Under the pieces are notes generated by a model. The model made no database searches. It was given only the letters and a program-made list of their open reading frames with translations, and had not been told where the DNA came from. Positions 3,362-19,315 of a stretch of DNA of 19,315 bases are shown piece by piece. Every line of letters starts with the position of its first letter. The first letter of the stretch is position 1. Origin of the DNA: a virus; the IMG/VR virus record IMGVR_UViG_3300045988_139350, positions 1 through 19,315 of that record; one strand, 5' to 3'. A program made the translations under genes and the position numbers.

Positions 3362-3367
3362 TAAGTG

Positions 3368-3397: not shown

Positions 3398-3421
3398 GTC
3401 GAACAAAACTTTAAAATATTT

Positions 3422-3462: not shown

Positions 3463-3509
3463 TAAATCATAGAAAAGGAACAAAATATTAAATAAAAGGA
3501 GAATGAAAA

Positions 3510-4086: not shown

Positions 4087-4091
4087 TAATA

Positions 4092-4114
4092 AGGGAGTGA
4101 ACAATTCGCTCCCT
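4092..4114 (+). other. Stable hairpin without a U-tract upstream of the terminal protein gene
   Basis: AGGGAGTG (4092..4099), loop aacaatt, CGCTCCCT (4107..4114): 8 bp including one G-U pair. It is followed by aatacatataat, not a T-run. Confidence 0.5.
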
Positions 4115-4156
4115 AATACATATAATATAAATATATGAATAATGGGAGGGTATAAC

Positions 4157-4954
4157 ATGAATGCAAAAAGGCAATTATCAGGATTAAAAAGAGTTAATTG
4201 GGAAAAGAAGTCAACTAAACAAAAGGTAAAATATTTAGTTAATAAGTTACAAGTATTAGGTTATAAAATTCCAACTTATTTAAAAAATGGACAACTTAGT
4301 GATAGGCAATTAAAATCACAAATTAATAAAATTGAACGTGGGTTACAATCACAAATCAAAAAAGACAATTCTAGTAATAATAAAAAACAATTACCAATTG
4401 AAACAAGACTTAACAGGTATATAAAAAGATATAATAAACAAGTTGAATCAACTATTAACGGATTAAAAGCTATGGGACTATCAGAGCAACAAATTGATTA
4501 TTTAACTGGTAAAGATGTATTTTTTCCATCTAGGAGGAATAAAAGTTTTAGGATTGATGGTGTTGCATTAAAGAAAATTGGTGAACTAAATATATCTGAT
4601 GATGAAAGAAAATTAGCAATGTTAAATAAATTGAAGAATGATTATAAGAAGATAACACTTCAAGCAGTTTATGACAAATTAAATGATGATACTATGCAGA
4701 ATAAATGGTTTGCTGATTTTATGAGTTTAGATTTTGTTCAAAACATGGAAAGTTATCAAAGACAGGCTATATGGAAACAATGGCACACACTTTCACCACT
4801 GCAAAAAGAATTATTTATAAAAGGGGAACTTAATAATTTAAGAGATAAATATTTTGATATTGGTGAAGGTGAAATGGATAAAGCTTCTGAAAATTCTTAT
4901 GCGAGAATTGACAGGACTATTAATGAATATAGACAATTAGATAGTTTTAAATAG
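4157..4954 (+). CDS. Terminal protein candidate (265 aa from ATG 4157; the track uses ATG 4142)
   Basis: GGGAGG at 4144..4149 lies 7 nt before ATG 4157, so the track start sits in front of that RBS. The gene is immediately upstream of the protein-primed PolB, as gene 3 is in phi29. The size is close to phi29 TP (266 aa) and the N-terminal half is basic. The C-terminal INEYRQLDSFK resembles the phi29 TP end (..YLEQYRRGDFDLSLKGF, from memory). Confidence 0.65.
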   Translation: MNAKRQLSGLKRVNWEKKSTKQKVKYLVNKLQVLGYKIPTYLKNGQLSDRQLKSQINKIERGLQSQIKKDNSSNNKKQLPIETRLNRYIKRYNKQVESTINGLKAMGLSEQQIDYLTGKDVFFPSRRNKSFRIDGVALKKIGELNISDDERKLAMLNKLKNDYKKITLQAVYDKLNDDTMQNKWFADFMSLDFVQNMESYQRQAIWKQWHTLSPLQKELFIKGELNNLRDKYFDIGEGEMDKASENSYARIDRTINEYRQLDSFK

Positions 4955-4967
4955 GGAGGGTTAATAA

Positions 4968-7097
4968 ATGGATTTAAATGAGAGGTTAAAAAATATAACA
5001 GAGAATTTAGATAATTATTATTCTTATAGGTGTATTCCAAATTATGCTGAAACACAAAATTTTGCATTTGATATTGAAGCATGTTATTTAAAAGAAAAGA
5101 ATGAAATGTTGACTTATTCTATAGCATTAATGTCATGCGATAATAATACAGATATTTGTTATCATTATAAATCTGTTGATAAGTTTATGAATGATTTACT
5201 ATCTATTAAAAAGAAAACAATTAATTTATTTGCTCATAATGCATTATATGATATCAAGCCTTTTATATTATGGTTTACTGAACAAGATAATGCTAATCAA
5301 AGATTTGATGCATATTATGAAAAAGAATGTTACGATTTTTATAATAAGAAAAAAGAGAAATTAAAATTTACAGCTAAAAATAAATCAAAGTTAAAATCAT
5401 TTGAATACAACTTAATAATGAAAGATGGTGTTTTTTATAAGTTAACTTTACAAGGTGATGATGTAACTATAAATTTTTATGATACTTTCAAAATTGCTCC
5501 ATTTAGTTTACAAAAATGTTGTAGTGATTTCCTTGATTTATGTTTACCAAAAGATGGATTAGATTATGAAAAAGAAAGAAGTATTGATGATGATTTAACA
5601 ACAGAAGAATTAAGTTATATTTATAATGATGTGTTTGGGTTAAGTTATTTAGTAAAAATGTTAAAAATTGACGGACTTGATATATACGGAAAACATGTTG
5701 TGTATACTAAATTAACAAATAGTGGTCAATCATTAGAGGACTACAAAGAAACAGTTCTTGAAGATTATACTTTAAAACAAAATATGTTTAAAAATCAAGA
5801 TTTATTTGACTATGTAGATAATGGGTTAATGCGAAGTAAATTTTTTCAAACTAATAGTCCTGCGTTAAAGAAACAAATAATGTTTGAATGTTTATTCCCA
5901 AAACAAAGTTATTTTACTGACGCATGGCAAAGACATTCTTATTATGGTGGATTAAGTACAGTATGTTTTGAAAATGTAGAAAAATTTACAAAATGTAAAA
6001 ATCATAATGGTATAGTTTTAGATGTTAATTCATTATATCCTTATATAATGAGCGATAGATTATTACCATATGGTCAAGCAAACTATAAGGAAATTCCGTG
6101 GTGCAAAATGAATGAAAGTTATAAGAAATGTTTTCCACTTTATATTCAAGAAATTACTATTTATGATTTTGAAGTAAAAGAAAATAAGATGGCATTCTTA
6201 CAAGTTAAGGACAATCCAAATTTTAATGGTAGAGAAATTTTAAAGAATAATATAAAAGATGGTGAAAAGGTAACATTAACTTTTAGATTATGCAATCCAT
6301 TACTTGAATTATTATTTGAATGTTATAATGTTTACTCTTATGAACTTGGTGGTCATATGGCATTTACTGGTAGTCATGATTTATTTAAAAATTATATTGA
6401 TTTTTGGAGCGAAGTAAAAAAGAATAGTACAGGAGCAAATAGGGCAATTGCAAAACTTAGACAAAATGGGTTATATGGTAAATTTGGTATGAGTGGCTCA
6501 AATGAAATTACAGAGTTTGAAAATAAAGACGGTATATTTACAATTAATCATTTACATGATGAATATGTTTCAGATAATGTTTACTTACCTATGGCGACCT
6601 TTATAACTTCATATGCTAAACAGTATCTAGTACAAGCTATTAATGCGAATTACGACAGATTTTTATATTGTGATACTGATAGTTTACATTTATACGGAAC
6701 ACTTGAAGAAGTTAAAGGTGTGAACATTGGTGCAAAAATATATGGTTACTGGGATAATGAGTTGTGTTTTGAAGATTTTAAATATATTGGTAGCAAACGT
6801 TATGCAGAAAAGAATGCAGAAACTCATAAATGGGAAATTAAATGTTGTGGGCTAACTGATAGCATTATGAAACAAGTTGATGATATTAATGTATTTGATA
6901 ACTGCCCACATTCAAGTAAGGAATTAAAAAAGATCAAATTATACACAAAAGAAAATGATGTATATTATTATTACGACGAAGAATGTACAAAGAAAATAGT
7001 AGGATTAATTAAATCTAAGAAATCAAAGATTATAAAAGGTGGTACACTTATACAAGAGCAACCTTATAAAATTTCAAATAGTTATTATTTATTTTAG
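4968..7097 (+). CDS. Protein-primed family-B DNA polymerase (709 aa)
   Basis: Exo I FAFDIEA. Exo II LFAHNALYDIKPF. Exo III YIYNDVFGL. Motif A VLDVNSLYPYIM. Motif B KLRQNGLYGKFG. Motif C LYCDTDSLHL. GGGAGGG RBS. Confidence 0.95.
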   Translation: MDLNERLKNITENLDNYYSYRCIPNYAETQNFAFDIEACYLKEKNEMLTYSIALMSCDNNTDICYHYKSVDKFMNDLLSIKKKTINLFAHNALYDIKPFILWFTEQDNANQRFDAYYEKECYDFYNKKKEKLKFTAKNKSKLKSFEYNLIMKDGVFYKLTLQGDDVTINFYDTFKIAPFSLQKCCSDFLDLCLPKDGLDYEKERSIDDDLTTEELSYIYNDVFGLSYLVKMLKIDGLDIYGKHVVYTKLTNSGQSLEDYKETVLEDYTLKQNMFKNQDLFDYVDNGLMRSKFFQTNSPALKKQIMFECLFPKQSYFTDAWQRHSYYGGLSTVCFENVEKFTKCKNHNGIVLDVNSLYPYIMSDRLLPYGQANYKEIPWCKMNESYKKCFPLYIQEITIYDFEVKENKMAFLQVKDNPNFNGREILKNNIKDGEKVTLTFRLCNPLLELLFECYNVYSYELGGHMAFTGSHDLFKNYIDFWSEVKKNSTGANRAIAKLRQNGLYGKFGMSGSNEITEFENKDGIFTINHLHDEYVSDNVYLPMATFITSYAKQYLVQAINANYDRFLYCDTDSLHLYGTLEEVKGVNIGAKIYGYWDNELCFEDFKYIGSKRYAEKNAETHKWEIKCCGLTDSIMKQVDDINVFDNCPHSSKELKKIKLYTKENDVYYYYDEECTKKIVGLIKSKKSKIIKGGTLIQEQPYKISNSYYLF

Positions 7098-7111
7098 GGG
7101 GTAAGGGATTT

Positions 7112-7675
7112 ATGAAATATGAAGATTATATTAATCAATATGGTGATAGATATTTAAGGGGTATGACTTATAAATATTATAATAGTATTTTAGTAAAATA
7201 TCATGATAGAGTAGAGTTTGAAGACGTGCTTCAAATATGTGAAGCAAAAGTCGCATTTGCTATAAATGAATATAATAAAGATATTGCCGGGCTAAACACA
7301 TTCATAGCAAAAGTAATAAAAAATGGAGTTTATGATGTTTTAAAAGTTGAAAGAAGAGAAAAAAGAAAAGTCTATGATAACAGAGTATTTTTAGATAAAG
7401 AAGTAGTTGAAAATGAAAGTAATAATGAATTGAGTTTATACAATGTCATTCAATCCGAAGATGAATACGAAGATATAAATGAAATAATTGATAAAGTTTG
7501 CGAATTTATTAAAAACGAAAGACATAGAGAATATTTTAAAATGTATTGTCAAGGATATACAATTGAAGAAATAAGTAATAAATTCGGAGTAAAATACAAT
7601 GGAACAAAAACAATTCTTTCAAGGATAAGAAAGAGATTAAGAGAACACGAAAAAGAAATAAGAGAAATAATATAA
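7112..7675 (+). CDS. ECF-like (group 4/5) sigma-70 family factor (187 aa)
   Basis: Region-2-like FEDVLQICEAKVAFAINEYNKD...LNTFIAKVIKNGVYDVLKVERREKRK. Region-4 HTH-like REYFKMYCQGYTIEEISNKFGVKYNGTKTILSRIRKRLRE. The size and two-domain layout are typical of ECF/TcdR-like sigmas. Confidence 0.75.
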   Translation: MKYEDYINQYGDRYLRGMTYKYYNSILVKYHDRVEFEDVLQICEAKVAFAINEYNKDIAGLNTFIAKVIKNGVYDVLKVERREKRKVYDNRVFLDKEVVENESNNELSLYNVIQSEDEYEDINEIIDKVCEFIKNERHREYFKMYCQGYTIEEISNKFGVKYNGTKTILSRIRKRLREHEKEIREII

Positions 7676-7680
7676 TAATT

Positions 7681-7706
7681 GGAGGGTTTTACCCTCCTTT
7701 TATTTT
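7681..7706 (+). terminator. Rho-independent terminator at the convergence point of the early and late arms
   Basis: GGAGGG(T) at 7681..7687 and (A)CCCTCC at 7691..7697, followed by TTTTATTTT. The T-run overlaps the stop codon of the convergent ATPase gene. No comparable U-run exists on the minus strand. Confidence 0.75.
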
Positions 7707-8707
7707 ACACCTAAACTTCTAAATATATCATACATCAAATGTTTAATATTTTGGTCTGTAAATCTTACTCTTCCAACTTGGAAATATGAAATTAATTGTT
7801 TCAACATATTTAGATTAATTCCACTTGCATTTAATAATGTATTCGGATTATGGTCTTCACAACTTAATACATATTCATTACAAGTTTTCATATATTTATC
7901 ATCACAATAGAATATACCAGTTTTATAGTCAAGCCATATCATTGCTCTTTCACCATTATAAACTATACTCATAACAGGCGAAGTATTTCGTTTCGGTCTT
8001 TTCTCAATGAATACTTCACTGTCTCTAAGAGAATTGTTATATATTGAATAGTCTGCATACTTTGTTCCTTTAATAAGCTTTCCGAATTTTGTTTCAAGTT
8101 TTTCGTTGATGAAAACTGTATCTGTACACATTTCAACAACTAATTCACCATCACGAGCAATAGTAAATCTTTCTGTTTTCTTAGGTGTTACATCAAAATA
8201 AGTAAAGTATGGATTTACTATAGAAACATTATTAGCTAATAAATAAGCTTTAACATTATTTCTTTTTCTTGCTATTGTTTCGTATAAATCTAAAAATACA
8301 TCAACTTCATTTGTTAGGTATCTTATACAACCTTTGTCAACAATGAACTCATCAAAAATGATGGTAGTTACAAAAGGGTAATCAACTGATTTTAATTTTT
8401 GAGAAGTTGAGAGAGCAATTGCATAACCTGCGATTTTTCCATCTATATAAAATGTTTTTCCCTTAACTTCAAACGTATGAGTTTTAAACTTTTTCCTTAA
8501 GTCGGGAGAATCAAAAAATTTGTGAATGTCATTAAGTTCCGTTTTATATCTTCTTACATAAACAAATTGTTCACCTTTCTTTAAAAACTTTTTTATTACA
8601 TTACATTTAGCACCAAAAGTTTTCCCAAATCCTCTATTAGTCAATATGAAATTTAAAGTAGCATTATAGCTATTAATTCTATCATAATTATACCAAGCCA
8701 CGAACAA
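7700..8707 (-). CDS. DNA encapsidation ATPase (phi29 gp16-like), 335 aa, non-ATG start (TTG 8707 or GTG 8701)
   Basis: Walker A LTNRGFGKTFGAK and Walker B TTIIFDEF. The N-terminus SYNATLNFILTNRGFGKTF parallels phi29 gp16 YDRILNFVIGARGIGKSY (from memory). It is the last gene of the late arm, as in phi29. RBS GGAAAGGAAG. Confidence 0.85.
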   Translation of the reverse strand: MFVAWYNYDRINSYNATLNFILTNRGFGKTFGAKCNVIKKFLKKGEQFVYVRRYKTELNDIHKFFDSPDLRKKFKTHTFEVKGKTFYIDGKIAGYAIALSTSQKLKSVDYPFVTTIIFDEFIVDKGCIRYLTNEVDVFLDLYETIARKRNNVKAYLLANNVSIVNPYFTYFDVTPKKTERFTIARDGELVVEMCTDTVFINEKLETKFGKLIKGTKYADYSIYNNSLRDSEVFIEKRPKRNTSPVMSIVYNGERAMIWLDYKTGIFYCDDKYMKTCNEYVLSCEDHNPNTLLNASGINLNMLKQLISYFQVGRVRFTDQNIKHLMYDIFRSLGVK

Positions 8708-8732
8708 AACACTTCCTTTCCATTTATTATAA

Positions 8733-8759
8733 AGCCCTTACATCTACTTTGTAAGGGCT
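8733..8759 (-). terminator. 10-bp perfect hairpin between the endolysin and ATPase genes (attenuator or terminator-like)
   Basis: On the minus strand: AGCCCTTACA, loop aagtaga, TGTAAGGGCT, then TTTATAATAAAT (interrupted U-tract that also contains a TATAAT-like box). Confidence 0.5.
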
Positions 8760-9435: not shown

Positions 9436-9493
9436 TTTTAATTCCTCCCTATTTTGGAAAATAAAATAATAATTAATAAAAATATAACTTTGA

Positions 9494-9505
9494 TTGATAT
9501 ATCAA
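9494..9505. repeat. 12-bp perfect palindrome TTGATATATCAA between the holin candidate and the endolysin
   Basis: Read directly. It lies in the 88-bp untranslated gap 9436..9523. Confidence 0.6.
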
Positions 9506-9523
9506 CATACATTTCCCAGTACA

Positions 9524-12200: not shown

Positions 12201-12229
12201 ACTAACGACAAAAAAGGACTTGAGTAAAC
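12201..12229 (-). promoter_or_regulatory. ECF-type promoter-like motif GTTTAC-N16-CGTTAGT ahead of the appendage gene
   Basis: On the minus strand: GTTTAC (12229..12224), spacer tcaagtccttttttgt (16 nt), CGTTAGT (12207..12201). The -35-like hexamer lies in the loop and 3' arm of the preceding hairpin. The leader to the RBS would be very short. Confidence 0.4.
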
Positions 12230-12234
12230 AAGCC
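12208..12234 (-). terminator. Intrinsic terminator/attenuator after the lower collar gene
   Basis: On the minus strand: GGCTTG, loop tttact, CAAGTCC (6 bp with one bulged U), then TTTTTTG. It starts immediately after the TAG stop at 12235..12237. Confidence 0.6.
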
Positions 12235-12861
12235 CTAATAAATTAACATAAATAAATCATTACATTCTTCAAAAATCATTTGGTCAATATTTATTAGTAC
12301 ACTTCTCCACTTTTCTAATAATTCAGCTGATGAAGTAACACCAATATTACCTTGGGAAACTAGAGAATAAGTTTCTGTTGAATTATTTTCTGCACTATTT
12401 GTTCCATTACTATTCATTGTTGAGTTGTCTGTATTTTTACTTGCACTAGTCATAAATTGGTCAAGGTCATCAATTTTATTTTGTGGAGTATCATTATTAA
12501 TATTTAAACTAGTGTCATTTGTTGTACTTGTTGAACTTTGATTTACTGAACTATTCCCTGTTAACTCTCTTGTATATTGTTCTTTCAAATCTTTATTTAA
12601 CATAAAATCAATGTCATTACATCGTAATTCTGTTTGATAGAGTTGCTTAAAATATGGATAAATATCATTTAATTTAATTTGCAAAGCTTTTTTAAATCTA
12701 GCAATAGGAGTTAATCCGATTTCATAAAAATAAAAATGGTCAATAAATTTTTTCTCAAAAGCTGATTTTAATTCATTGTCGTACAAATTATAATTAAAAT
12801 CAAATAATGTAAAATCCACACTATTAACTATTTGATTTAATTCTAACGTATATTTACTCAT
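12235..12861 (-). CDS. Lower collar protein (phi29 gp11-like), 208 aa from ATG 12861 (the track starts at 12906)
   Basis: GGAGGGAGA RBS precedes ATG 12861, which overlaps the connector stop by 8 nt. FYFYEIGLTPIARFKKALQIKLNDIYPYFKQLYQTE matches the EIG.ET...F...L....I.PYYN.LY block I recall for picovirus lower collar proteins. It follows the connector, as in phi29. The C-terminal half is N/S/T-rich low complexity. Confidence 0.7.
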   Translation of the reverse strand: MSKYTLELNQIVNSVDFTLFDFNYNLYDNELKSAFEKKFIDHFYFYEIGLTPIARFKKALQIKLNDIYPYFKQLYQTELRCNDIDFMLNKDLKEQYTRELTGNSSVNQSSTSTTNDTSLNINNDTPQNKIDDLDQFMTSASKNTDNSTMNSNGTNSAENNSTETYSLVSQGNIGVTSSAELLEKWRSVLINIDQMIFEECNDLFMLIY

Positions 12862-13732
12862 CAACTTCTCCCTCCTCTTCTCCCTCTTGGTCATAACTAC
12901 TTTCAAAATTATTATTTTTACTTACTTTAACATTTAGTCCAAACTTTTTATTAAGTTCTTCACATGCAACTTGTCTATTAGCAAACATAATATCTACATT
13001 TCTGTTTATATAATCATTATTTGAATTAACCTCATCTACAAGCAACCTCTCTTTTTTCTCAAAAGAATTATTTAATCCAAAAAATGTCAAAATTTCTCTT
13101 TCAAGTTCATACTTATATTGATTAAGTTTATCCGCAACATATGGAGTTGTAGTTAATATTGCATTTGAATTTTCTATATTTAAATCCTTATTACCAAATA
13201 TAACTGGCTCTAAATTATCCACTTCTTCGAATAGTTTTTGCATAGTTTGTTTATTGTTAGGGGTTGTTTCAATAAACCAAGGGAACTTTTGATGATTGAT
13301 GTTTGCTCTAATACATCTTTCAACCTCCATCATCTTTGTTGCATAATCTATTACATAATCTTCTGTTCCAAATCCTAAATCATTATTAAGAATAAGCTGA
13401 GATTTATCTTTCCAGTTTTTATTTAAATAGGGTATAGTTTTTATATAATTATAACCACTTGTAATTACTTTTGTATGCTCAAAATTTACATTCATTTCTT
13501 CGGCGAATTCACAAGGCACACATATTAGCCCTAAGTTTTCATCATCAACAAATATCGCTTTTCCAAAATGAAACAAAGATTTTTCTATATATCTTGGTTT
13601 AATTGTTTCGGGTAGATTTTCCCATGTGAACATATTTAAAGCTAATAGTTTATATTTATTATACAATAAATTAAAATGTTGATTTCTGCTTTCTTGCATA
13701 AATGCTTGTTTTTGTTTATGTGTCATTCCCAT
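12854..13732 (-). CDS. Head-tail connector / upper collar (portal, phi29 gp10-like), 292 aa from ATG 13732 (the track starts at 13810)
   Basis: GGAGGTG lies 7 nt before ATG 13732, right after the upstream stop (13734..13736). [28 protein letters not shown] parallels phi29 gp10 [45 protein letters not shown] parallels [28 protein letters not shown] parallels INELYGLNVKV (phi29 sequences from memory). Confidence 0.9.
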   Translation of the reverse strand: [292 protein letters not shown]

Positions 13733-13733
13733 T

Positions 13734-14984
13734 TTAATACACCTCCACATTATTTTCGTATTCGAACATTGTTGTCCCTTCATTGTCCATGTGCCATACT
13801 GTAATGCCATTATTGAAAATTGATTTTATTTCGTCTAAGTATTCATGTGGTATTCTTGCACCCACAATATTACATACATTTGTTTTTACGTAATTATAAT
13901 GCTTTCTACATGTTAAATTTATATAATCATATCCGTTAACTTTATAACCATATCGTTTAAAATATTCTTGAGCCTTTGCCATCTGTTGGACATTACATCT
14001 ATATTCTAATAAATCTACTCTTTGATTGCTATTAATTAAATTAAAAAGTGTGTCATTCCCTGCGGTTTTAATACTATTAGGAGTTGTTAGCATATCATTA
14101 ACCTTTGCATTCTTCATGCTTATAATATTGTGTTCATTTAATTGTGAATTTTCATTTGCTTGGGTATTAGCTAATTGATTTTGCATGTAACCAAAAGCTA
14201 GGTTACTTGCATTACTAGCTAAACCACCAAAATTTAAGCTTAATAAATTACCAATAGCACTTAATGCATTGGTTGCAGTATTTTGTGCAAAATTCAAATT
14301 ATTTGATTGTGTATTATGCTTTAATGTCAAATCATTTTCTAATAAAGCATTAGTAACTGATTGATTAAATGAACTTGCGGAAGTTGCTAAAAATTGACTA
14401 TATGCTGATGAAGTTACTGGTAACATTAATGCTGTACTATTACACATCCCCTCTAAGTTTCCGTCATCATCGTATTTATAATTTTCTACATAAATATTAT
14501 ATTTACTTTCTGAACTAATAGCAGTAGTTTTTACCATAACCTTAAATTCATTACTATCATTATCTTCAATTCTTTCGGGTTTAATTAACATTGGATTAGA
14601 AGAATAATCAGTAATTAAAAAATATCTAAAAGGATAACATAATACCCTAGGCTCAAAATCATAACTATAGTCAGATTTTTTAGGGTATATTTTCTGTGTA
14701 TCACCTAATTGATAATTAATTTTATCGAATGAACATATTCTTTTTACATATGGGATTTGGCCATCAGGACTACCATAACGTGCAGTATCGAATATTGCTT
14801 TTCTTACATCTGATATATCAGCTTCATCTATAAAAGGATTATAAGTTACACTTTCAATAGTATTTACAAAACCCAAATAAGTTGCTTCAGTTGCACCATT
14901 TTTTGGTACGTAATAATAATATAATCCAACCGCAACATTATTTATTATTGTACTATCAGGCTCGTTTTTTGAAGTTGTTGCCAT
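13734..14984 (-). CDS. Tail knob protein, C-terminal two-thirds of a phi29 gp9-type protein (416 aa)
   Basis: The C-terminus FKRYGYKVNGYDYINLTCRKHYNYVKTNVCNIVG...IKSIFNNGITVWHMDN parallels phi29 gp9 [34 protein letters not shown]...IRTIFDNGITLWHTDN (from memory). CYPFRYFLITDYSSNPMLIKPE parallels MYPYCVTEITDFKGNHMNLKTE. AGGAGG RBS. Confidence 0.8.
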   Translation of the reverse strand: MATTSKNEPDSTIINNVAVGLYYYYVPKNGATEATYLGFVNTIESVTYNPFIDEADISDVRKAIFDTARYGSPDGQIPYVKRICSFDKINYQLGDTQKIYPKKSDYSYDFEPRVLCYPFRYFLITDYSSNPMLIKPERIEDNDSNEFKVMVKTTAISSESKYNIYVENYKYDDDGNLEGMCNSTALMLPVTSSAYSQFLATSASSFNQSVTNALLENDLTLKHNTQSNNLNFAQNTATNALSAIGNLLSLNFGGLASNASNLAFGYMQNQLANTQANENSQLNEHNIISMKNAKVNDMLTTPNSIKTAGNDTLFNLINSNQRVDLLEYRCNVQQMAKAQEYFKRYGYKVNGYDYINLTCRKHYNYVKTNVCNIVGARIPHEYLDEIKSIFNNGITVWHMDNEGTTMFEYENNVEVY

Positions 14985-14998
14985 TAAAATTACCTCCT

Positions 14999-16558
14999 TT
15001 AATCTCCTAATAAATTTCTATATCGATAATCACTATTTGGAGTTCTGTCATTTTCCATTATATCTGTACCAGTTTGTTTTGCTTCTATTACATGAATTGT
15101 ACCGTCATCATTAAATCTATAAAACATAACAACATGTCCATTATCAGAATTACCTCTAGTGAATACTAAATCACCCGGTTTACATTCTTCAAGTGTTATT
15201 TCTTTACCCTCTTTAATTTGTGTGTATGTTGTTCTTGAAATTGAAATTCCGTTGTCATTATATGCCCATTGACATAAACCCGAACAATCTGTTCCGCTAC
15301 TGTTACCAAGTGGAGGATAATTTCCACCATATACATAAGGCAAACCAATTAACTTTAACGCACTATTTATAATATTTTGCCTTATTTCACTTGTTGGAGT
15401 GTCATACTTATTGAACATATCAGGAATGAATCCTTTTCCGTCATTATCTGTAATAGTTCCACCATTTAGATTAGGTATTGGTTTATAATTATAATCACCG
15501 TTTAAAAATACATTTGCTTCAGCTTTTCTTCTATTCCTTAATCCCTCTTCGAATTGAGTACCACTCATTATTACTGTTTCTTTCCACACTTCAGCTATAC
15601 TTTCGGGACTATCACCATTAATATACTTTGTAAAAATTGTTTTAGAAGATAGTGAGCCAGTATTATAATAAAAACTAACAAAAGCATCAAAATGTTGTTG
15701 CTTCATTTTATTCATATCAAAACCATAATTAACAAAAGTGTCATAAACATAAGTTGAATAATTTTTCTTTAAACTTTCGGCTAATACATTACTTGCCTGT
15801 TCCTCTGTACACTCAGGAGCGAGTTGATTATAATGTTCAGGATCGTATTCACTAGTAGTACCGTAACCTATTGTGTATGTCCCATCACCTAAATTGTATG
15901 GAGTAGAACTAAATCCCTCGCCCTGTTTAATAAACCAAAAACCATTTGCTGATACTAGTTTATCTTTATATAAATTACCTTGATTTGTTGAACTGCCACC
16001 ACTTCCACTACCGCCACTGTATTTTATAGAAAGCTTATCAGAACTAGTAACAATATATCCGCCTTTATTTTCATAATCATAAAGTGGAGTTCTGTTTTGT
16101 AAGATATACTCACCTATTTCAAAATCTTCATTTTCTAACATATTATAATCTGCAACTGTTCCATCTTGATTCCAACGCCATAAATGTTGTCTGTCTATAT
16201 GAGATTTAATTTTTGTAAATTTCATTTCAAACCAATACGTTTGGATAACATCTAATTTCAGAGTAAGTTCTGTTACATTTTCTGATAAATAAGTTTTATT
16301 TAAAATAAAAAAGTATTCCATTTTACCATCAACAGAATTTTGAAATGCACAATAATTACATAATGCAAGTTCGTCAATATATTTTGGAACTTTTAATGTA
16401 CGTTCTTTTCTTAAATATGTGCAATTATCAATTTTAAACTGTAAATAATTCATAAAGAAATTAAATTGATTAGTTACATTATTGAAGTTTACTGTATGAT
16501 TGTGCCCAACATCTAAAAACCAACAGTTAAACAAATAAATTGTACTTTGTCTTGCCAT
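14999..16558 (-). CDS. Tail-associated tri-domain protein: gp9-like tail-knob N-domain + GH24 phage lysozyme + NlpC/P60 endopeptidase (519 aa)
   Basis: The N-domain LKLDVIQTYWFEMKFTKIKSHIDRQHLWRWNQDGT parallels phi29 gp9 [33 protein letters not shown] (from memory). Linker SGGSGSGGSS. Lysozyme block FIKQGEGFSSTPYNLGDGTYTIGYGTT...FDAFVSFYYNTG...GLRNRRKAE. NlpC/P60 block GLPYVYGG...GTDCSGLCQWAY...GHVVMF. Confidence 0.85.
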   Translation of the reverse strand: MARQSTIYLFNCWFLDVGHNHTVNFNNVTNQFNFFMNYLQFKIDNCTYLRKERTLKVPKYIDELALCNYCAFQNSVDGKMEYFFILNKTYLSENVTELTLKLDVIQTYWFEMKFTKIKSHIDRQHLWRWNQDGTVADYNMLENEDFEIGEYILQNRTPLYDYENKGGYIVTSSDKLSIKYSGGSGSGGSSTNQGNLYKDKLVSANGFWFIKQGEGFSSTPYNLGDGTYTIGYGTTSEYDPEHYNQLAPECTEEQASNVLAESLKKNYSTYVYDTFVNYGFDMNKMKQQHFDAFVSFYYNTGSLSSKTIFTKYINGDSPESIAEVWKETVIMSGTQFEEGLRNRRKAEANVFLNGDYNYKPIPNLNGGTITDNDGKGFIPDMFNKYDTPTSEIRQNIINSALKLIGLPYVYGGNYPPLGNSSGTDCSGLCQWAYNDNGISISRTTYTQIKEGKEITLEECKPGDLVFTRGNSDNGHVVMFYRFNDDGTIHVIEAKQTGTDIMENDRTPNSDYRYRNLLGD

Positions 16559-16583
16559 AAAAATTCACTTCCTTTCTATTTTC

Positions 16584-16612
16584 ATATACGACAAAAAAGG
16601 AGGGTTGTATAC
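16584..16612 (-). promoter_or_regulatory. ECF-type promoter-like motif GTATAC-N16-CGTATAT ahead of the tail gene block
   Basis: On the minus strand: GTATAC (16612..16607), spacer aaccctccttttttgt (16 nt), CGTATAT (16590..16584). It sits about 25 nt upstream of the RBS of the 519-aa gene. The -35-like hexamer lies in the loop of the preceding terminator. Confidence 0.5.
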
Positions 16613-16617
16613 CTCCT
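16592..16617 (-). terminator. Rho-independent terminator after the major capsid gene
   Basis: On the minus strand: AGGAGG (16617..16612), loop tatacaac, CCTCCT (16603..16598), then TTTTTG. It begins 5 nt after the capsid stop. Confidence 0.75.
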
Positions 16618-16622
16618 ATAAA

Positions 16623-17666
16623 TTATGCAGTTACTATTCTACAAACATTTGCAAAATTACAAGCAGACATTAAACCCCATCTATTGAAGAATATATTTGT
16701 ATAAATTCCTTGAGGATTTCTGAATGTTTCAGAACTATTTAATGTTTCATATATTTGTATTGCATCTTTATCACAAATAATAGCCAAACAATCAGTATCT
16801 TCTGCGTATGTTGCTTCTTCACCTGTTCCAGTTCTCTTTGTAAATTGAGGTACCGGTAATACATGAAGTGGAACTTCTGCCTTGTCTATATTGAATGCTT
16901 GTGCTAATAATTCAACATCAATGTTTGCCATCATATCGGGATCTAAGAATACAACTAAGTCTTGAGGCCTTGAGAATGTCATTACCCCTTGTCCATTATG
17001 TTTGTTGTTTAAGAATCCCATTTTGATAACTTGAGATTTTATAGTTTTAACTATTACTTTTGCTTTTTCTTCTTCTGTCATTGCACTATATGCAGTTTTA
17101 TCAATAGTAGCTTTGCCACCTTTTAGTTCAGGTAATGCATGTAATACCATTTCTTGCATATCATACTCGATAGAAGTTAGTGGAGCCTGTAATATTCTTC
17201 CTGTCATTGAAGAAAGTCCATTTTCTGCTCTGAACGCACCTTTTAATTCCTCATCAGTAATTGTTGTCTTATATTGATGACGGAAATTTTCTGAATAATA
17301 CTCAACCTTTACATTTGGATTTTCTCTTGATAATAAATCACTTGCTAAAGTAGTTGTATTAGTTTCGTGTGTTCTTTGTTTACCCTTAACAATATCAACA
17401 AAGGTAGATTCTATTGACTTACCATATGGTAACATACCTCTGTTAAATAACTTATATGGATTTTCATATGCTTTGCTAAAAAATAATTGTTTTGCAACTT
17501 GATTTGTTAAAACAGAAATAAATTCATTCTTTGCAGTTGGATAAGTTGAAATAATTTCTTCTATATTTCCAATATTGTCTTGAGTAGCTACTGGTACTCT
17601 GTCTTTATATTCTTGACTTGCTAAATCACTAACCATACTTGCAAACGTAACGTTATCTAATGCCAT
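16623..17666 (-). CDS. Major capsid protein (phi29 gp8-like, no Ig-like C-terminal domain), 347 aa
   Basis: [13 protein letters not shown] parallels phi29 gp8 [37 protein letters not shown] parallels [53 protein letters not shown] parallels [29 protein letters not shown] (phi29 from memory). It follows the scaffold gene. Confidence 0.9.
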   Translation of the reverse strand: [347 protein letters not shown]

Positions 17667-17681
17667 AATATAATCACTCTC

Positions 17682-17954
17682 CTATAATACTTTATTTAAA
17701 AACTCTTGATAACTCATTTTAGGTTGAGCATCTTGAGGTTTAGACTTATTTTGTTCGGGACTAGATGAAACTTGTTCAAATAATTCATAATTTTTTATTT
17801 TTAACTTCTTAACTTGCTCATCATATGATTTAATTGTTTCATCCTTTTCTGATAAAACTGATTTTTGACTTTCCAATTGTTGCTTTAAATCTGCTATTTC
17901 TTTTTCAGCTTTTAATTGATAGTCGTTAGCTTGTTCCAAATTTTCAAATGCCAT
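17682..17954 (-). CDS. Scaffolding protein (phi29 gp7-like), 90 aa
   Basis: Small, highly charged, heptad-rich (KAEKEIADLKQQLESQKSVLSEKDETIKSYDEQVKKLKIKNYELFEQV). It lies directly upstream of the capsid gene. AGGAGG RBS. Confidence 0.7.
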   Translation of the reverse strand: MAFENLEQANDYQLKAEKEIADLKQQLESQKSVLSEKDETIKSYDEQVKKLKIKNYELFEQVSSSPEQNKSKPQDAQPKMSYQEFLNKVL

Positions 17955-17990
17955 TATTATTTCCTCCTTTTAATTTATTAATTCTTAATA

Positions 17991-18118
17991 GAATACCCAA
18001 ATATGCACCTTGTAGTGCGTTGGGTACTCAATAAAAATGCAATTTATAAATGTTAATAACGGAAATACCACTTTCGACCTTACAACTATCGGCTCTTCAC
18101 CGTGGTGCATAGTTGTAA
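17991..18118 (-). promoter_or_regulatory. GC-enriched structured leader / candidate ncRNA: two 39-nt hairpins upstream of the scaffold gene
   Basis: Minus strand. Hairpin 1 (18118..18080): UUACAACUAU pairs with AUAGUUGUAA (10 bp), internal loop GCACCA, upper stem CGGU/GCCG, loop GAAGA. Hairpin 2 (18029..17991): GAGUACCCAA pairs with UUGGGUAUUC (10 bp, one G-U), upper stem GCAC/GUGC, loop UACAAG. An alternative 8-bp pairing exists between UAUGCACC (18111..18104) and GGUGCAUA (18009..18002). Confidence 0.5.
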
Positions 18119-18153
18119 CATTATTATTCAACGTATTATAAACTACAATTATT

Positions 18154-18182
18154 ATATACGATTGAAAAAATAAAAGGTAGAC
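18154..18182 (-). promoter_or_regulatory. ECF-type promoter-like motif GTCTAC-N16-CGTATAT, candidate main late promoter
   Basis: On the minus strand: GTCTAC (18182..18177), spacer cttttattttttcaat (16 nt), CGTATAT (18160..18154). It sits between the right-end operon terminator and the late genes. The -35-like hexamer spans the loop and 3' arm of that terminator. Confidence 0.5.
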
Positions 18183-18197
18183 AATAAAGCCTACCTT
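18164..18197 (-). terminator. Rho-independent terminator ending the right-end (SSB) operon
   Basis: On the minus strand: AAGGTAG (18197..18191), loop gctttattgt, CTACCTT (18180..18174), then TTATTTTTT. It starts 4 nt after the stop of the 93-aa gene. Confidence 0.75.
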
Positions 18198-18201
18198 AAT
18201 A

Positions 18202-18483
18202 TTATTCTTCGATCTCACCATTAGCAAATTGAATTGCCTTATTTAATCTGTATGCTATTTTCTTCATTGCATATATTTCTTTTTCTTCTGTAGCAATTTT
18301 ATCTTCTAATGTATATATTTCACAAGATAATTTTTCCATATCTATGAATTCATTGTCTGAACTAGCTAACTTTAATAATTTATTAACTTCCTTTTTATCA
18401 TTTACTTTAACTCTTTTTGCTAACTCTAATGTTTGTGTAACCTCGTCTAATAAAGTTAATAAATGAGCCTTAATACTTTCCAT
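18202..18483 (-). CDS. Hypothetical acidic helical protein (93 aa), translationally coupled to SSB
   Basis: Its ATG shares one base with the SSB stop (TAATG at 18485..18481). It is charged and heptad-like. No motif recognised. Confidence 0.6.
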   Translation of the reverse strand: MESIKAHLLTLLDEVTQTLELAKRVKVNDKKEVNKLLKLASSDNEFIDMEKLSCEIYTLEDKIATEEKEIYAMKKIAYRLNKAIQFANGEIEE

Positions 18484-18854
18484 TATTTTCTACCACCTTT
18501 TCTATAATTTCTCTTATTTTTATTATCTTCTTCAAATACATTTTCTTCTTTGAACTTAATAATTTCAATATTGTGGACAATTACACTAAAGTAATTCTTC
18601 CAATTTCCTTTATCATCTTTAACTGATTTATAATCAATTTCACCCTCTATTAAAACTTTAGCACCAGTTACTAAATACTTTTCCATTGATTCAACTCTTT
18701 GACCAAACATAGTAACAGGTACAAAATTAGTTTTAGCCTTTTCACCATAACCAACTTGATTTGCTACTGTAAAATTACCAACTATTGTCTCGTTAGCTAA
18801 TACCTTTACGTCCATGTCCTTTGTTAAATTTCCACTAATAATTACTTTGTTCAT
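18483..18854 (-). CDS. ssb: Single-stranded DNA-binding protein (bacterial OB-fold SSB type), 123 aa
   Basis: MNKVIISGNLTKDMDVKVLANETIVGNFTVANQ...TNFVPVTMFGQRVESMEKYLVTGAKVLIEGEI... follows the canonical SSB pattern (MN.V.L.G.L..D.....G....F.lA.........F......G..AE....yl.KG..v.v.G.l). GAGGT RBS. Confidence 0.85.
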   Translation of the reverse strand: MNKVIISGNLTKDMDVKVLANETIVGNFTVANQVGYGEKAKTNFVPVTMFGQRVESMEKYLVTGAKVLIEGEIDYKSVKDDKGNWKNYFSVIVHNIEIIKFKEENVFEEDNKNKRNYRKGGRK

Positions 18855-18898: not shown

Positions 18899-18910
18899 TA
18901 TATTATACTG
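18899..18910 (-). promoter_or_regulatory. -10-like box cAGTATAATATA, candidate promoter of the SSB operon
   Basis: The minus strand reads CAGTATAATATA (TATAAT at 18907..18902), about 45 nt upstream of the SSB ATG. No good -35 is present (ATACTT at 17 nt). It forms a 12-bp inverted repeat with 18962..18973. Confidence 0.45.
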
Positions 18911-18961
18911 ATATTTGAGAGCTAAAGTATACACTATTTTAAAAATATTTAAGAGTAATAC

Positions 18962-18973
18962 CAGTATAATATA
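18962..18973 (+). promoter_or_regulatory. -10-like box cAGTATAATATA facing the right genome end
   Basis: The plus strand reads CAGTATAATATA (TATAAT at 18965..18970). It is the mirror copy of the 18899..18910 box, 51 bp away. The upstream region is A/T-rich and no -35 is recognisable. Confidence 0.35.
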
Positions 18974-18984
18974 TGTAATATTGA

Positions 18985-19001
18985 GGGCGAATAAATCGCC
19001 C
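18985..19001. other. GC-clamped hairpin GGGCGA-ataaa-TCGCCC
   Basis: Perfect 6-bp G/C-rich stem in an otherwise A/T-rich non-coding end region. No clear U-tract on either strand. Confidence 0.55.
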
Positions 19002-19031
19002 ACAGGAATAAAATATGTGATTAATAAATGT

Positions 19032-19061
19032 GCGGTAATTAAAATGGTGGTTTAATTCCGC
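19032..19061. other. Long hairpin GCGG(t)AATTAAA-atggtgg-TTTAATTCCGC
   Basis: 11 bp with one bulged T (19036) and a 7-nt loop, with GC clamps at the base. It lies in the non-coding right end. Confidence 0.55.
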
Positions 19062-19118
19062 TATAAATAAAATGAAAGGAGAAAAAATGAAAAAGTGTCC
19101 GATAGAACTATGCTCAAT

Positions 19119-19129
19119 TATATTATACT
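19119..19129 (-). promoter_or_regulatory. Third AGTATAATATA box (minus strand) with TTTACC 17 nt upstream
   Basis: The minus strand reads TTTACC-aatccaactcaaaatag-TATAAT-ATA. Transcription from here would run leftward across both hairpins, convergent with the 18962..18973 box. Confidence 0.35.
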
Positions 19130-19226
19130 ATTTTGAGTTGGATTGGTAAACAATTATGATAAAGTAATTAATACTATTTAATAAATATTTATGTAAAAAT
19201 TATATGGTACTGTGTGATGTATTGTG

Positions 19227-19315
19227 AAAATCTTCTGCCCTAGTATAAAACAAATAACATGTAGTTACTGAAACCATGTGGGGAAGTTTTGTAAACAGGG
19301 AAGTATTAATTAGAT
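19227..19315. repeat. Right inverted terminal repeat (89 bp)
   Basis: Exact reverse complement of 1..89. Terminal repeats plus a protein-primed PolB and a terminal-protein candidate fit a linear genome with covalently capped ends. Confidence 0.97.

What the first reader, a model, noticed from the sequence alone, without database searches (positions are those of the whole stretch)
12201..18182. Three co-oriented copies of GTnTAC-N16-CGT(A/T) precede the three late gene blocks: a candidate regulon of the phage sigma
The minus-strand sites are:
- 18182..18154, GTCTAC-N16-CGTATAT, before scaffold and capsid.
- 16612..16584, GTATAC-N16-CGTATAT, before the tail and connector genes.
- 12229..12201, GTTTAC-N16-CGTTAGT, before the appendage, lysis and ATPase genes.

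All have exactly 16-nt spacers and all are intergenic and point at the downstream genes. The layout resembles known ECF promoters, such as the B. subtilis SigW/SigX type xxAAC-N16/17-CGTA. The TTTAC core also recalls the TTTACA -35 reported for TcdR-family sigmas, which I cite from memory.

CG-containing words are rare in this genome. I checked every ACG and most of the CGT trinucleotides by eye (some plus-strand CGTs inside minus-strand coding regions were not checked) and found no further full match apart from the plus-strand copy at 3422..3450. A rough estimate assumes about 13% each for G and C, which I did not count. On that basis the 8 fixed positions would be expected well under once on both strands of 19 kb.
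Basis: seen in the sequence. Interest (0 to 1): 0.8.

Follow-up and report, generated by a model that had tools for sequence, protein, structure and literature searches.

The report
Terminator-promoter modules in gut podophage

Summary
Observation confirmed. GTnTAC-N16-CGT occurs four times (0.07 expected) at the stated coordinates. The window is a complete 19.3-kb phi29-like genome with 89-bp inverted terminal repeats and a sigma-70-family gene (7112..7675) that ends the early operon.

All three minus-strand copies lie inside intrinsic terminators (hairpins of -8.7 to -12.9 kcal/mol followed by T tracts). GTnTAC is hairpin loop or 3' arm, and CGT follows the T tract. A terminator after the capsid gene is present in every lineage examined. 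The CGTATAT box downstream of it is lineage-specific and absent from the nearest outgroups.

The motif is still more than terminator anatomy. Relaxing C to A/C adds two co-oriented, terminator-free sites (19151, 18932). Both show conserved -35 and -10 with a variable spacer across relatives. Sense-strand GT[ACT]TAC is 52-fold enriched in non-coding DNA (p=3e-5).

Site 1 does not precede the scaffold gene directly. It precedes a covariation-supported, pRNA-like non-coding RNA.

Which holoenzyme reads the family is unresolved. The -10 (GTATAAT) is host-sigmaA-like and shared with the early promoters. Verdict: partly supported, a new member of known kinds.

The parts
18174..18197 (-). Site 1 intrinsic terminator hairpin (AAGGTAGGC/GTCTACCTT), followed by the T tract at 18164..18173. 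It ends the right-end SSB unit.
   Evidence: 9 pairs plus TTATTTTTTC. (-12.9 kcal/mol, z -4.9). (11 variants, 99/99 cells paired, compensatory changes at pairs 6 and 7).
18151..18160 (-). Site 1 -10-like box CGTATATAAT, placed 5 nt upstream of the first helix of the non-coding RNA.
   Evidence: Invariant in 15 distinct relatives, while the spacer varies in sequence and in length (16/17). Coordinates.
17981..18146 (-). Conserved structured non-coding RNA, a pRNA-like candidate. Domain I (18146..18039) has a terminal helix, a three-way junction and bulge/apical-loop complementarity. A 3' hairpin domain lies at 18033..17981.
   Evidence: 26 of 36 pairs with compensatory changes. (93.6% of cells paired against 34-47% in slid controls; the loop-loop helix covaries). 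(one copy per genome across the clade).
16598..16617 (-). Site 2 intrinsic terminator after the major capsid gene (AGGAGG/CCTCCT), with its T tract at 16592..16597. GTATAC (16612..16607) spans the last stem G plus the loop.
   Evidence: -8.7 kcal/mol. A hairpin plus T tract at this position in every lineage seen.
16584..16590 (-). Site 2 box CGTATAT, between the T tract and the RBS of the tail lysin gene (ATG 16558).
   Evidence: Invariant in 16 distinct relatives. Absent from the nearest outgroups L051 and L054 and from the distant lineage.
12215..12236 (-). Site 3 intrinsic terminator after the lower-collar gene (AGGGCTTG/CAAGTCCT), with its T tract at 12209..12214. GTTTAC (12229..12224) spans the last stem G plus the loop.
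   Evidence: -10.7 kcal/mol, z -5.0. Conserved in 13 distinct relatives. The whole site is absent in the distant lineage.
12201..12207 (-). Site 3 box CGTTAGT. Only CGTT is conserved. The SD AGGAGG starts at 12193 and the likely start ATG is at 12178.
19122..19151 (-). Further family member: the right-end promoter GTTTAC-N16-AGTATAAT (TTTACC-17-TATAAT). It lies in no terminator.
   Evidence: In relatives TTGTTTACCAAT and GTATAATATAATTGAGCAT are invariant, the spacer varies, and four genomes have CGTATAAT.
18902..18932 (-). Further family member: GTATAC-N17-AGTATAAT, upstream of the SSB gene (18483..18854).
3422..3462 (+). The plus-strand regex match (3422..3446) overlaps the class I early promoter TTGCAA-17-TATAAT (3434..3462). 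It lies 29 nt after the early terminator 3368..3393, whose tail is TTTTTTTGTCG.
   Evidence: the paralogous promoter at 180..208 lacks the motif.
7112..7675 (+). Phage sigma-70-family gene (187 aa, regions 2 and 4), the last gene of the early plus-strand operon.
   Evidence: PF07638, 27.1 bits against a cutoff of 21.1. (TIGR02937, 62 bits against 42.9). (phrog_1740). (profile hit to sigma-H 3mzy, E 8.6e-12).

Best explanation
Each of the three sites is a composite element.

1. Terminators. A Rho-independent terminator (GC-rich hairpin plus T tract) ends or attenuates the upstream transcription unit. The units are the SSB unit, then pRNA-like RNA, scaffold and capsid, then tail, connector and collar.

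2. Overlapping promoters. A promoter of one phage-specific family overlaps each terminator. Its -35-like GTnTAC lies in the hairpin loop or 3' arm. The T tract serves as the spacer. The -10-like (C/A)GTAT box follows the tract.

3. Size of the family. It has at least five co-oriented members on the minus strand: 19151, 18932, 18182, 16612 and 12229. Possibly there is a sixth at 3422+.

4. What the sites drive. Site 1 drives a pRNA-like RNA and, behind it, the scaffold and capsid genes. Sites 2 and 3 would re-start transcription after partial termination.

5. Which polymerase. The family is distinct from the TTGCAA-17-TATAAT early promoters that drive the operon ending in the sigma gene. The phage sigma is therefore the natural candidate reader (inferred, about 40%). 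Host sigmaA is about equally likely.

Shown: the motif, the hairpins, the covariation and the conservation pattern. Inferred: promoter activity at sites 2 and 3, and the identity of the sigma.
For: The motif is non-random.

Hairpins:
- Hairpins and T tracts are present at all three sites and are stable.
- The site-1 hairpin keeps 99 of 99 pairs through compensatory changes.
- A terminator follows the capsid gene in every lineage examined.

Family members outside terminators:
- The relaxed motif GT.TAC-N16/17-[AC]GT[AT] gives 8 hits against 0.76 expected (0 of 500 simulations reach 8). These include 19151 and 18932, which lie outside terminators.
- Those two sites show invariant -35 and -10 with a variable spacer across about 14 relatives.

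Enrichment and conservation:
- Sense-strand GT[ACT]TAC falls 5 times in 1005 non-coding nt against once in 10522 coding nt (Fisher p 2.8e-5).
- In the site-2 loop, T(A/G)TAC is kept while the next three loop bases vary. A 1-nt deletion in L003 preserves TAC-N16-CGT.
- The boxes after the T tracts are invariant in 13-16 distinct relatives, while sequence upstream of the hairpins is free to vary.

Site 1 as a promoter:
- A covariation-supported RNA starts 5 nt after the site-1 box, so a promoter must be there.

Other lineages:
- They show the same design with their own shared boxes. G3 has TGTAC-N20/21-TATAWW four times. L042 has TTTTGT(C/T)GTATAATATA three times.

The sigma gene:
- Every lineage for which the region downstream of the polymerase gene was recovered (window, distant, G3) has a sigma-like gene there.

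Precedent:
- The phage 7-11 sigma reads the bipartite late promoters GTAAtg-(16)-aCTA (PMC8948821).
Against: - The -10 core GTATAAT is sigmaA-like. It is shared with the class I early promoter at 3434 (TGTATAAT), which must be read by host sigmaA.
- The C of 'CGT' is polymorphic (A/C) at 19151 within the lineage. It is not kept in other lineages.
- The GTCG tail also follows the early plus-strand terminator at 3393. The tail may therefore belong to the terminator module.
- The nearest outgroups (L051, L054) and the distant lineage express the genes after the capsid terminator with no room for a promoter. Read-through therefore suffices.
- At site 3 the predicted start would fall at the first base of the Shine-Dalgarno sequence (12193/12194), and the -10 is poor (TTAGTA). 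The same tight geometry is seen at G3 site 3 and L042 site 2.
- At site 1 the two variable hexamer letters are dictated by hairpin pairing.
- There are no transcript data.
Confidence: 0.55

Rival explanations
1. The GTnTAC...GTATAAT family consists of ordinary host sigmaA promoters, read as TnTACn-17/18-TATAAT-like. Their strengths differ: the right-end and SSB promoters are strong, site 1 is moderate, and sites 2 and 3 are weak or dead. The phage sigma has other, unrecognised targets or a different role.
For: - The sites at 19150 and 18931 score 10/12 against TTGACA-17-TATAAT.
- The G-TATAAT core is shared with the class I early promoters.
- The distant lineage has TTTACA-17-TACAAT before SSB and TTAACC-17-TACAAT before the RNA.
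- In phi29, pRNA and SSB are early, sigmaA-dependent transcripts (established knowledge; PMC11476376).
- The A/C polymorphism at -14.
Against: - None of the six hexamers has the G of TTG, and all have a G three bases upstream of TAC. That is not a sigmaA feature.
- Sites 2 and 3 lack the -7 T, and site 3 also lacks the -11 A, of a sigmaA -10.
- In lineage G3 the shared TGTAC lies 20-21 nt from TATAAT, too far for sigmaA spacing.
- A phage-encoded sigma conserved across the clade needs promoters, and no other repeated motif was seen.
Confidence: 0.35
2. Sites 2 and 3 are only leaky intrinsic terminators. They act as attenuators that set the ratio of capsid to tail to appendage gene expression. 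Their resemblance to promoters comes from shared terminator ancestry (the TTTTTTGTCG tail) and AT-rich sequence. Only 19151, 18932 and 18182 are promoters.
For: - The terminator after the capsid gene is universal, while the box is missing in 5 of 9 lineages. In those the T tract abuts the RBS.
- The GTCG tail also occurs at the early terminator.
- The predicted start at site 3 collides with the SD.
- A fourth hairpin (8759..8726) has a TATAAT that is not conserved in relatives (output).
Against: - The two stems are unrelated in sequence, yet both loops keep GT(A/T)TAC in the same register to CGT.
- The loop bases are conserved while neighbouring loop bases vary.
- TTGTTTAC at site 3 is identical to the -35 of the bona fide right-end promoter.
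- The boxes are invariant in 13-16 relatives.
Confidence: 0.3
3. The three matches are a chance coincidence in an AT-rich genome.
For: The motif was defined post hoc from three sites.
Against: - 0 of 200 and 0 of 500 randomisations reach the observed count.
- All three sites are conserved across relatives.
- Intergenic enrichment has p 2.8e-5.
Confidence: 0.02

Closest known systems
Late promoters of phage-encoded sigma factors in podophages: Salmonella phage 7-11 gp47 (GTAAtg-(16)-aCTA) and phiEco32 gp36 (tAATGTAtA) (PMC8948821)
   Same: A small lytic podophage encodes its own divergent sigma-70-family protein. A short bipartite motif with a 16-nt spacer recurs upstream of late gene blocks.
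   Different: - Those promoters were mapped and reconstituted in vitro; here nothing has been mapped.
- The host is Gram-negative and the phage family (Kuravirus-like) is unrelated.
- The motif here has a sigmaA-like -10 and overlaps terminators.
Bacillus subtilis ECF promoters (SigW TGAAAC-N16-CGTA; SigX TGTAAC-N17-CGAC) - from established knowledge
   Same: An xxxxAC hexamer, a 16-17 nt spacer and CGT(A/T) in the window lineage. The sigma scores as a sigma70-ECF superfamily member.
   Different: - The core is TAC/CAC, not AAC.
- CG is not conserved outside the lineage.
- No anti-sigma gene is evident.
- The best solved relative by profile is a sigma-H-type protein (3mzy), not a classical ECF.
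TcdR/UviA/BotR/TetR group-5 clostridial sigma factors (-35 TTTACA, -10 GTTATA; PMC4031146)
   Same: - A TTTAC -35 core, as in TTTACC, TTTACT and TATACA.
- A -10 that starts with GT, as in GTATAA and GTTAGT.
- Small two-domain sigmas of low-GC Firmicutes, some of them phage- or plasmid-borne.
   Different: - The family marker SRQ in region 4.2 is absent (the window protein has ...ILSRIRK...).
- tblastn against all phage records found no match at E <= 1e-3.
- The -10 consensus differs.
phi29 transcription map: late promoter A3 activated by p4 with sigmaA, plus Rho-independent terminators (PMC11476376)
   Same: The same virion and replication module set, namely terminal protein, PolB, gp16 ATPase, connector and phi29-type capsid. 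Both use intrinsic terminators to bound early and late units.
   Different: - phi29 has no sigma gene, and the word 'sigma' does not occur in the 2024 review.
- phi29 transcribes all late genes from a single promoter.
- In phi29 the pRNA gene sits at the genome end behind early promoter A1, not in front of the scaffold gene.
phi29 prohead RNA (pRNA; Rfam RF00044; PMC5066667)
   Same: For the RNA behind site 1:
- The 5' and 3' ends pair.
- There is a three-way junction.
- A bulge loop on one arm is complementary to the apical loop of the other arm, like the CE and D loops, and this pairing covaries.
- It co-occurs with the gp16-type ATPase and the connector.
   Different: - There is no Rfam match even at E <= 10.
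- The genomic position differs.
- Its function is untested.

Membership tests
Rho-independent (intrinsic) terminator | GC-rich hairpin directly followed by a T/U tract, on the transcribed strand at a gene end | tested here: met
   One search finds all three sites (stems of 6-9 pairs, at least 5 T in the next 8 nt). One search gives -12.9, -8.7 and -10.7 kcal/mol. Each lies 5-6 nt or less after a stop codon.
Rho-independent (intrinsic) terminator | Structure rather than sequence is conserved (compensatory changes, or positional conservation with unrelated stems) | tested here: met
   Site 1: 11 variants, 99/99 cells paired, pair 6 = AT/GC/TA. Site 2: a hairpin plus T tract after the capsid gene in all 9 lineages seen, with different stems.
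Rho-independent (intrinsic) terminator | RNA 3' ends form in the U tract in vivo or in vitro | not testable with these tools
   Needs Term-seq or in vitro termination assays.
ECF (group 4) sigma factor and its promoters | The protein has only regions 2 and 4 and matches ECF profiles above threshold | tested here: met
   PF07638 scores 27.1 against a cutoff of 21.1. TIGR02937 scores 62 against 42.9. No equivalog reaches its cutoff. The profile's best PDB hit is a sigma-H-type protein. The AF2 model is too poor to use (pLDDT 40).
ECF (group 4) sigma factor and its promoters | Promoter with an AAC-type -35 and a CGT-type -10, conserved where the sigma is conserved | tested here: inconclusive
   TAC/CAC-N16/17-CGT holds within the window lineage. 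However, C is A/C polymorphic at 19151, and CG is replaced in other sigma-bearing lineages.
ECF (group 4) sigma factor and its promoters | Co-encoded anti-sigma factor and autoregulated promoter | tested here: not met
   No anti-sigma-like gene lies next to 7112..7675; the neighbours are PolB and the convergent ATPase. The only family copy upstream of the operon is the doubtful 3422 site.
TcdR-like (group 5) sigma factors | SRQ motif in region 4.2 | tested here: not met
   The window protein ends ...GTKTILSRIRKRLRE. The marker is defined in PMC4031146.
TcdR-like (group 5) sigma factors | Promoters with -35 TTTACA and -10 GTTATA | tested here: inconclusive
   The -35 cores TTTACC, TTTACT and TATACA resemble the consensus. 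The -10 is GTATAA, GTATAT or GTTAGT rather than GTTATA (PMC4031146).
Host sigmaA-type promoter | TTGACA-like and TATAAT-like hexamers 16-18 nt apart | tested here: inconclusive
   19150 and 18931 score 10/12. Site 1 is TCTACC-17-TATATA, site 2 is TATACA-17-TATATG and site 3 is TTTACT-17-TTAGTA. None has the TTG of the -35.
Functional promoter (any sigma) | Conserved -35 and -10 with a freely varying spacer across relatives | tested here: met
   Met for 19151, 18932 and site 1. Not informative for sites 2 and 3, because the spacer there is the constrained hairpin arm plus T tract.
Functional promoter (any sigma) | Primary transcript 5' end 5-9 nt downstream of the -10 | not testable with these tools
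   The only indirect support is at site 1, where the first helix of the conserved RNA starts 5 nt after the box.
phi29 pRNA (RF00044) | Match to the Rfam covariance model | tested here: not met
   No hit at E <= 1 on the whole window, nor at E <= 10 on 17950..18200.
phi29 pRNA (RF00044) | Terminal helix, three-way junction, and complementary bulge and apical loops that covary | tested here: met
   40 pairs, 93.6% of cells paired, 29 pairs with a change on both sides. The loop-loop helix (columns 50-53 with 86-89) is 96.7% paired, and 3 of its 4 pairs covary.

The most novel reading that the evidence does not exclude
A whole clade of human-gut phi29-like phages has replaced the phi29 p4/sigmaA switch with its own sigma factor(s).

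The sigma would read a dedicated promoter class (GTnTAC-N16/17-(C/A)GTAT in this lineage, with lineage-specific variants elsewhere). The -35 elements of that class are built into the hairpins of the preceding terminators, so each late unit ends and the next one starts within about 45 nt.

The first of these promoters makes a previously undescribed pRNA-type packaging RNA. That RNA is fused to the 5' end of the scaffold/capsid transcript.
Probability: 0.35. Interest if true: 0.65.

Novelty: new member of a known kind. Interest (0 to 1): 0.45.

Why it matters
Transcription of phi29-like phages is a textbook case in which host sigmaA plus the activator p4 makes the early-to-late switch. A 2024 review of the group does not mention a phage sigma at all.

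Here a large uncultured gut clade carries one or two sigma genes next to the polymerase. The polymerase search alone gave 391 homologues at E <= 1e-20. The clade also has a compact, repeated terminator/promoter design.

If the sigma reads these sites, this gives a second, independent solution to the temporal switch in the smallest tailed phages. It would also give a ready-made orthogonal promoter/sigma pair for low-GC Firmicutes.

Independently of that, the RNA behind site 1 extends pRNA-like packaging RNAs beyond the Bacillus phages. It gives 25 natural variants with covarying kissing loops.

Tried and rejected
- Megablast of the whole window and tblastn of the sigma against 50,697 phage records found nothing. 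The closest cultured relatives are C. perfringens and C. symbiosum podophages at about 31% capsid identity. They have no annotated sigma and no hit to the RNA model.
- Rfam found no family for the RNA or for the sites. A mir-283 hit at E 0.42 is the site-2 hairpin by chance.
- phmmer of the sigma against PDB gave only spurious eS17 hits. A profile was needed to reach sigma structures.
- The AlphaFold model of the sigma was built from a shallow alignment and reached only pLDDT 40, so no fold search was run.
- The word-based protein search for sigma homologues returned only relatives at 81% identity or more. It gave no intermediate lineages, so those were reached through capsid-based locus searches instead.
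- I tried to show that the -35 variant co-varies with the sigma across lineages. Lineage-specific sets exist, but the test is not decisive.
- A fourth hairpin with CTTACA-18-TATAAT (8759..8726) was considered as a family member. I rejected it because neither hexamer is kept in relatives (output).
- I considered that the plus-strand match at 3422 is a sixth member and left this open. It overlaps a sigmaA-type promoter whose paralogue at 180..208 lacks it.

Full report
WHAT THE WINDOW IS

The 19,315-nt window is a complete linear phage genome with 89-nt perfect inverted terminal repeats. G+C is 26.9%.

The plus strand (about 300..7675) carries the early genes:
- a PAPS-reductase-like gene;
- a candidate terminal protein (4142..4954);
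- a protein-primed family-B DNA polymerase (4968..7097);
- as the last gene, a 187-aa sigma-70-family protein (7112..7675).

The minus strand carries, from the right end inwards:
- a non-coding stretch, SSB (18483..18854) and a small ORF;
- a 247-nt gap;
- scaffold, the phi29-type major capsid protein (16623..17666) and a tail lysin;
- the tail protein, connector and lower collar (12235..12906);
- the pre-neck appendage, holin, amidase and the gp16-type packaging ATPase (7700..8707).

These assignments rest.

No cultured phage is close. Megablast finds nothing, and the best capsid matches are about 31% identical (C. perfringens and C. symbiosum podophages). Dozens of relatives exist in human-gut metagenomes.

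GTNTAC-N16-CGT matches four times, at 3422+, 12229-, 16612- and 18182-. Shuffles expect 0.07-0.09 matches, and none of 200 or 500 randomisations reaches four. The three minus-strand copies are kept in all 13-16 distinct sequences of the window's own lineage.

A terminator scan returns all three sites:
- 18197..18174, AAGGTAGGC-loop-GTCTACCTT followed by TTATTTTTTC;
- 16617..16598, AGGAGG-loop-CCTCCT followed by TTTTT;
- 12236..12215, AGGGCTTG-loop-CAAGTCCT followed by TTTTT.

As RNA they fold at -12.9, -8.7 and -10.7 kcal/mol.

GTnTAC is the 3' arm at site 1. At sites 2 and 3 it is the last stem G plus the first five loop bases. The 'N16 spacer' is a hairpin arm plus T tract, and CGT comes right after the tract.

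The site-1 hairpin is proven by covariation. Eleven variants from three lineages keep 99 of 99 pairs, and pair 6 appears as A-T, G-C and T-A. Those covarying positions are exactly the two variable letters of the 'hexamer' (GTCTAC, GTTCAC, GTTAAC).

A hairpin plus T tract directly after the capsid gene is present in all nine lineages examined, with unrelated stems. In five of them the T tract runs straight into the ribosome-binding site. These include the two closest outgroups to the window lineage: L051 and L054, at 78% and 73% capsid identity, with the homologous stem GGAGGG/CCCTCC. Downstream genes there must be expressed by read-through. The ancestral function of site 2 is therefore attenuation. 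The GTCGTATATGAAAA box is an insertion specific to the window lineage. Site 3 is absent altogether in the distant lineage.

THE MOTIF IS NEVERTHELESS A PROMOTER FAMILY, AND A LARGER ONE

Allowing A or C before GT, and a 16-17 nt spacer, gives eight hits against 0.76 expected (0 of 500 simulations reach eight). Five are co-oriented, intergenic and on the minus strand. These are the three sites plus two new ones:
- 19151..19122, GTTTAC-N16-AGTATAAT;
- 18932..18902, GTATAC-N17-AGTATAAT, in front of SSB.

The two new members are not in terminators. Across about 14 relatives they show invariant TTGTTTACCAAT or GTGTATAC, an invariant GTATAATATAA, and a spacer that varies in sequence and length. Four relatives even have CGTATAAT at 19151.

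On the sense strand of the minus-strand block, GT[ACT]TAC occurs five times in 1,005 non-coding nt and once in 10,522 coding nt (odds ratio 52.6, p = 2.8e-5).

At site 2 the loop bases T(A/G)TAC are kept while the following three loop bases vary. A 1-nt deletion in L003 preserves TAC-N16-CGT. At site 3, TTGTTTAC is identical to the -35 of the right-end promoter.

So GTnTAC is a genuine -35-like element. It has been accommodated in, or recruited from, terminator hairpins.

SITE 1 DRIVES AN RNA, NOT THE SCAFFOLD GENE DIRECTLY

Between the box (18160..18151) and the scaffold start (17954) lies a conserved structured RNA.
- RNAalifold on 15 sequences from six lineages predicts 36 pairs, 26 with compensatory changes.
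- With a loop-loop helix added, 93.6% of cells pair, against 34-47% when partners are slid, and 29 of 40 pairs change on both sides.
- The 5' end (GTAGTTTATAA, from 18146) pairs with 18049..18039.
- A three-way junction carries one arm with a bulge (ACCA) and an apical GUGAAGAG loop. The second arm has an apical loop (UGGU) complementary to the bulge.
- This complementarity covaries: ACCA/UGGU, GCCA/UGGU, UGCAAA/UUUGCA, UAUC/GAUA, AUCA/UGAU.

That is the architecture of phi29 pRNA: helix A, a three-way junction, and CE and D loops (PMC5066667). Rfam's pRNA model nevertheless does not match.

A covariance model built here finds exactly one copy per genome, always upstream of the scaffold gene, in every lineage of the clade. 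It finds none in cultured CPS2 or CS229P2.

Because the first helix starts 5 nt after the box, and a terminator lies immediately upstream, a promoter must sit at site 1.

WHICH RNA POLYMERASE HOLOENZYME?

The sigma-gene product is a bona fide sigma-70-family protein:
- PF07638, 27.1 bits against a cutoff of 21.1;
- TIGR02937, 62 bits against 42.9;
- phrog_1740;
- a clade profile that hits the sigma-H-type structure 3mzy at E 8.6e-12.

It is very divergent, and no equivalog model reaches its cutoff. A sigma-like gene follows the polymerase in the window lineage, in the distant lineage (229-232 aa, 22-25% identical) and in lineage G3 (two paralogues, 35% and 22% identical).

The early operon that ends in the sigma gene is driven by a distinct promoter type, TATTGCA(A/T)-17-TATAAT-TAAATCAT. 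It occurs at 180..208 and 3434..3462, and also at both ends of G3.

Two promoter classes plus a sigma at the end of the class I operon fit a cascade: host sigmaA on class I, then phage sigma, then class II. Phages 7-11 and phiEco32 are precedents (PMC8948821).

The counter-arguments are as strong:
- The class II -10 core, GTATAAT, is sigmaA-like and shared with class I (TGTATAAT at 3454).
- The C of CGT is dispensable at 19151.
- CG is replaced in other sigma-bearing lineages, which have TGTATAAT, CTATATAG or CATACAAT.
- GTCG also trails the early terminator at 3393.
- In phi29, pRNA and SSB are sigmaA transcripts.
- At site 3 the predicted start coincides with the first base of the Shine-Dalgarno sequence.

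Against a pure sigmaA reading:
- None of the six hexamers has TTG, and all have the extra upstream G.
- The -10s of sites 2 and 3 lack key bases.
- G3's shared TGTAC lies too far (20-21 nt) from TATAAT.

I therefore rate 'phage sigma reads the family' at about 0.4 and 'host sigmaA reads it' at about 0.35.

The TcdR idea fails its marker test, because there is no SRQ motif (PMC4031146). It also found no BLAST support.

THE PLUS-STRAND COPY

The copy at 3422..3446 lies 29 nt after an early terminator. It overlaps the class I promoter, with its CGT inside that promoter's spacer. It is conserved in L005, but the paralogous promoter at 180..208 lacks it. It may be a tandem class II promoter or a coincidence. 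This is left open.

VERDICT

The best description is three intrinsic terminators, each fused to a member of a promoter family with at least five members. The first of them makes a pRNA-like RNA.

The link to the phage sigma is a reasonable hypothesis resting on gene order and on the existence of two promoter classes, not on any direct test.

This is a new member of known kinds (phage promoters, attenuating terminators, possibly a phage-sigma regulon) in a phage group where no sigma has been described.

Noticed in passing
window 18146..17981, minus strand (domain I 18146..18039): A conserved structured non-coding RNA lies between site 1 and the scaffold gene. It has phi29-pRNA-like architecture: a terminal helix, a three-way junction, and bulge/apical-loop complementarity that covaries in five lineages. 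Rfam has no match. There is one copy per genome throughout the clade, and none was detected in cultured CPS2 or CS229P2. This may be the most interesting thing in the window.
   Followed up: partly
window 1..89 and 19227..19315: Perfect 89-nt inverted terminal repeats. The window is therefore a complete linear, presumably protein-primed genome.
   Followed up: yes
window 19119..18949, minus strand: About 170 nt with no ORF lies between the right-end promoter and the SSB promoter. It is more conserved than coding DNA in nine relatives. It has two hairpins with a few compensatory changes (GCGG/CCGC to GUGG/CCAC; GGGCGA/UCGCCC to AGGCGA/UCGCCU). It may be a second small RNA or an origin-proximal element.
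   Followed up: partly
window 180..208 and 3434..3462, plus strand; also both ends of L049/L050: A repeated early promoter module, TATTGCA(A/T)-17-TATAAT-TAAATCAT(A/G)GAAA(A/G)GG, is conserved across lineages and located near the genome ends.
   Followed up: partly
L050:11025-11570 and 11586-12152 (minus); L013:4801-5490: Sigma-like genes follow the polymerase gene in the other lineages where that region was recovered. One lineage has two tandem paralogues. Another has a 229-aa version only 22% identical to the window protein, and in that lineage the replication block is inverted relative to the late genes.
   Followed up: partly
window 8759..8726 (minus) and 4092..4126 (plus): Two further stable hairpins (-15 kcal/mol each) lack a good T tract and are each followed at once by TATAAT. 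The sequences are AGCCCTTACA..TGTAAGGGCT before the ATPase gene and AGGGAGTGAACAATTCGCTCCCT before the terminal-protein gene. The TATAAT of the first is not kept in relatives.
   Followed up: partly
window 9436..9523, minus strand: The 'intergenic' gap between holin and amidase contains a possible 28-codon ORF (MYWEMYVDISIKVIFLLIIILFSKIGRN) that looks like a small membrane protein.
   Followed up: no
L015 about 6230..6330 (upstream of the scaffold gene): A tandem array of about 22-nt units (TATACTCATTTACGAGTATACTTATTTACGAG...) is inserted between the RNA and the scaffold gene in one distant-lineage genome. L017 and L033 carry a single unit.
   Followed up: no
L049/L050 contig ends: The IMG/VR contig 3300045988_136042 begins with Illumina adapter sequence (GCGACCACCGAGATCTACACTCTTTCCCTACACGACGCTCTTCCGATCT). 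Its apparent 269-nt terminal repeat is therefore partly an artefact.
   Followed up: no
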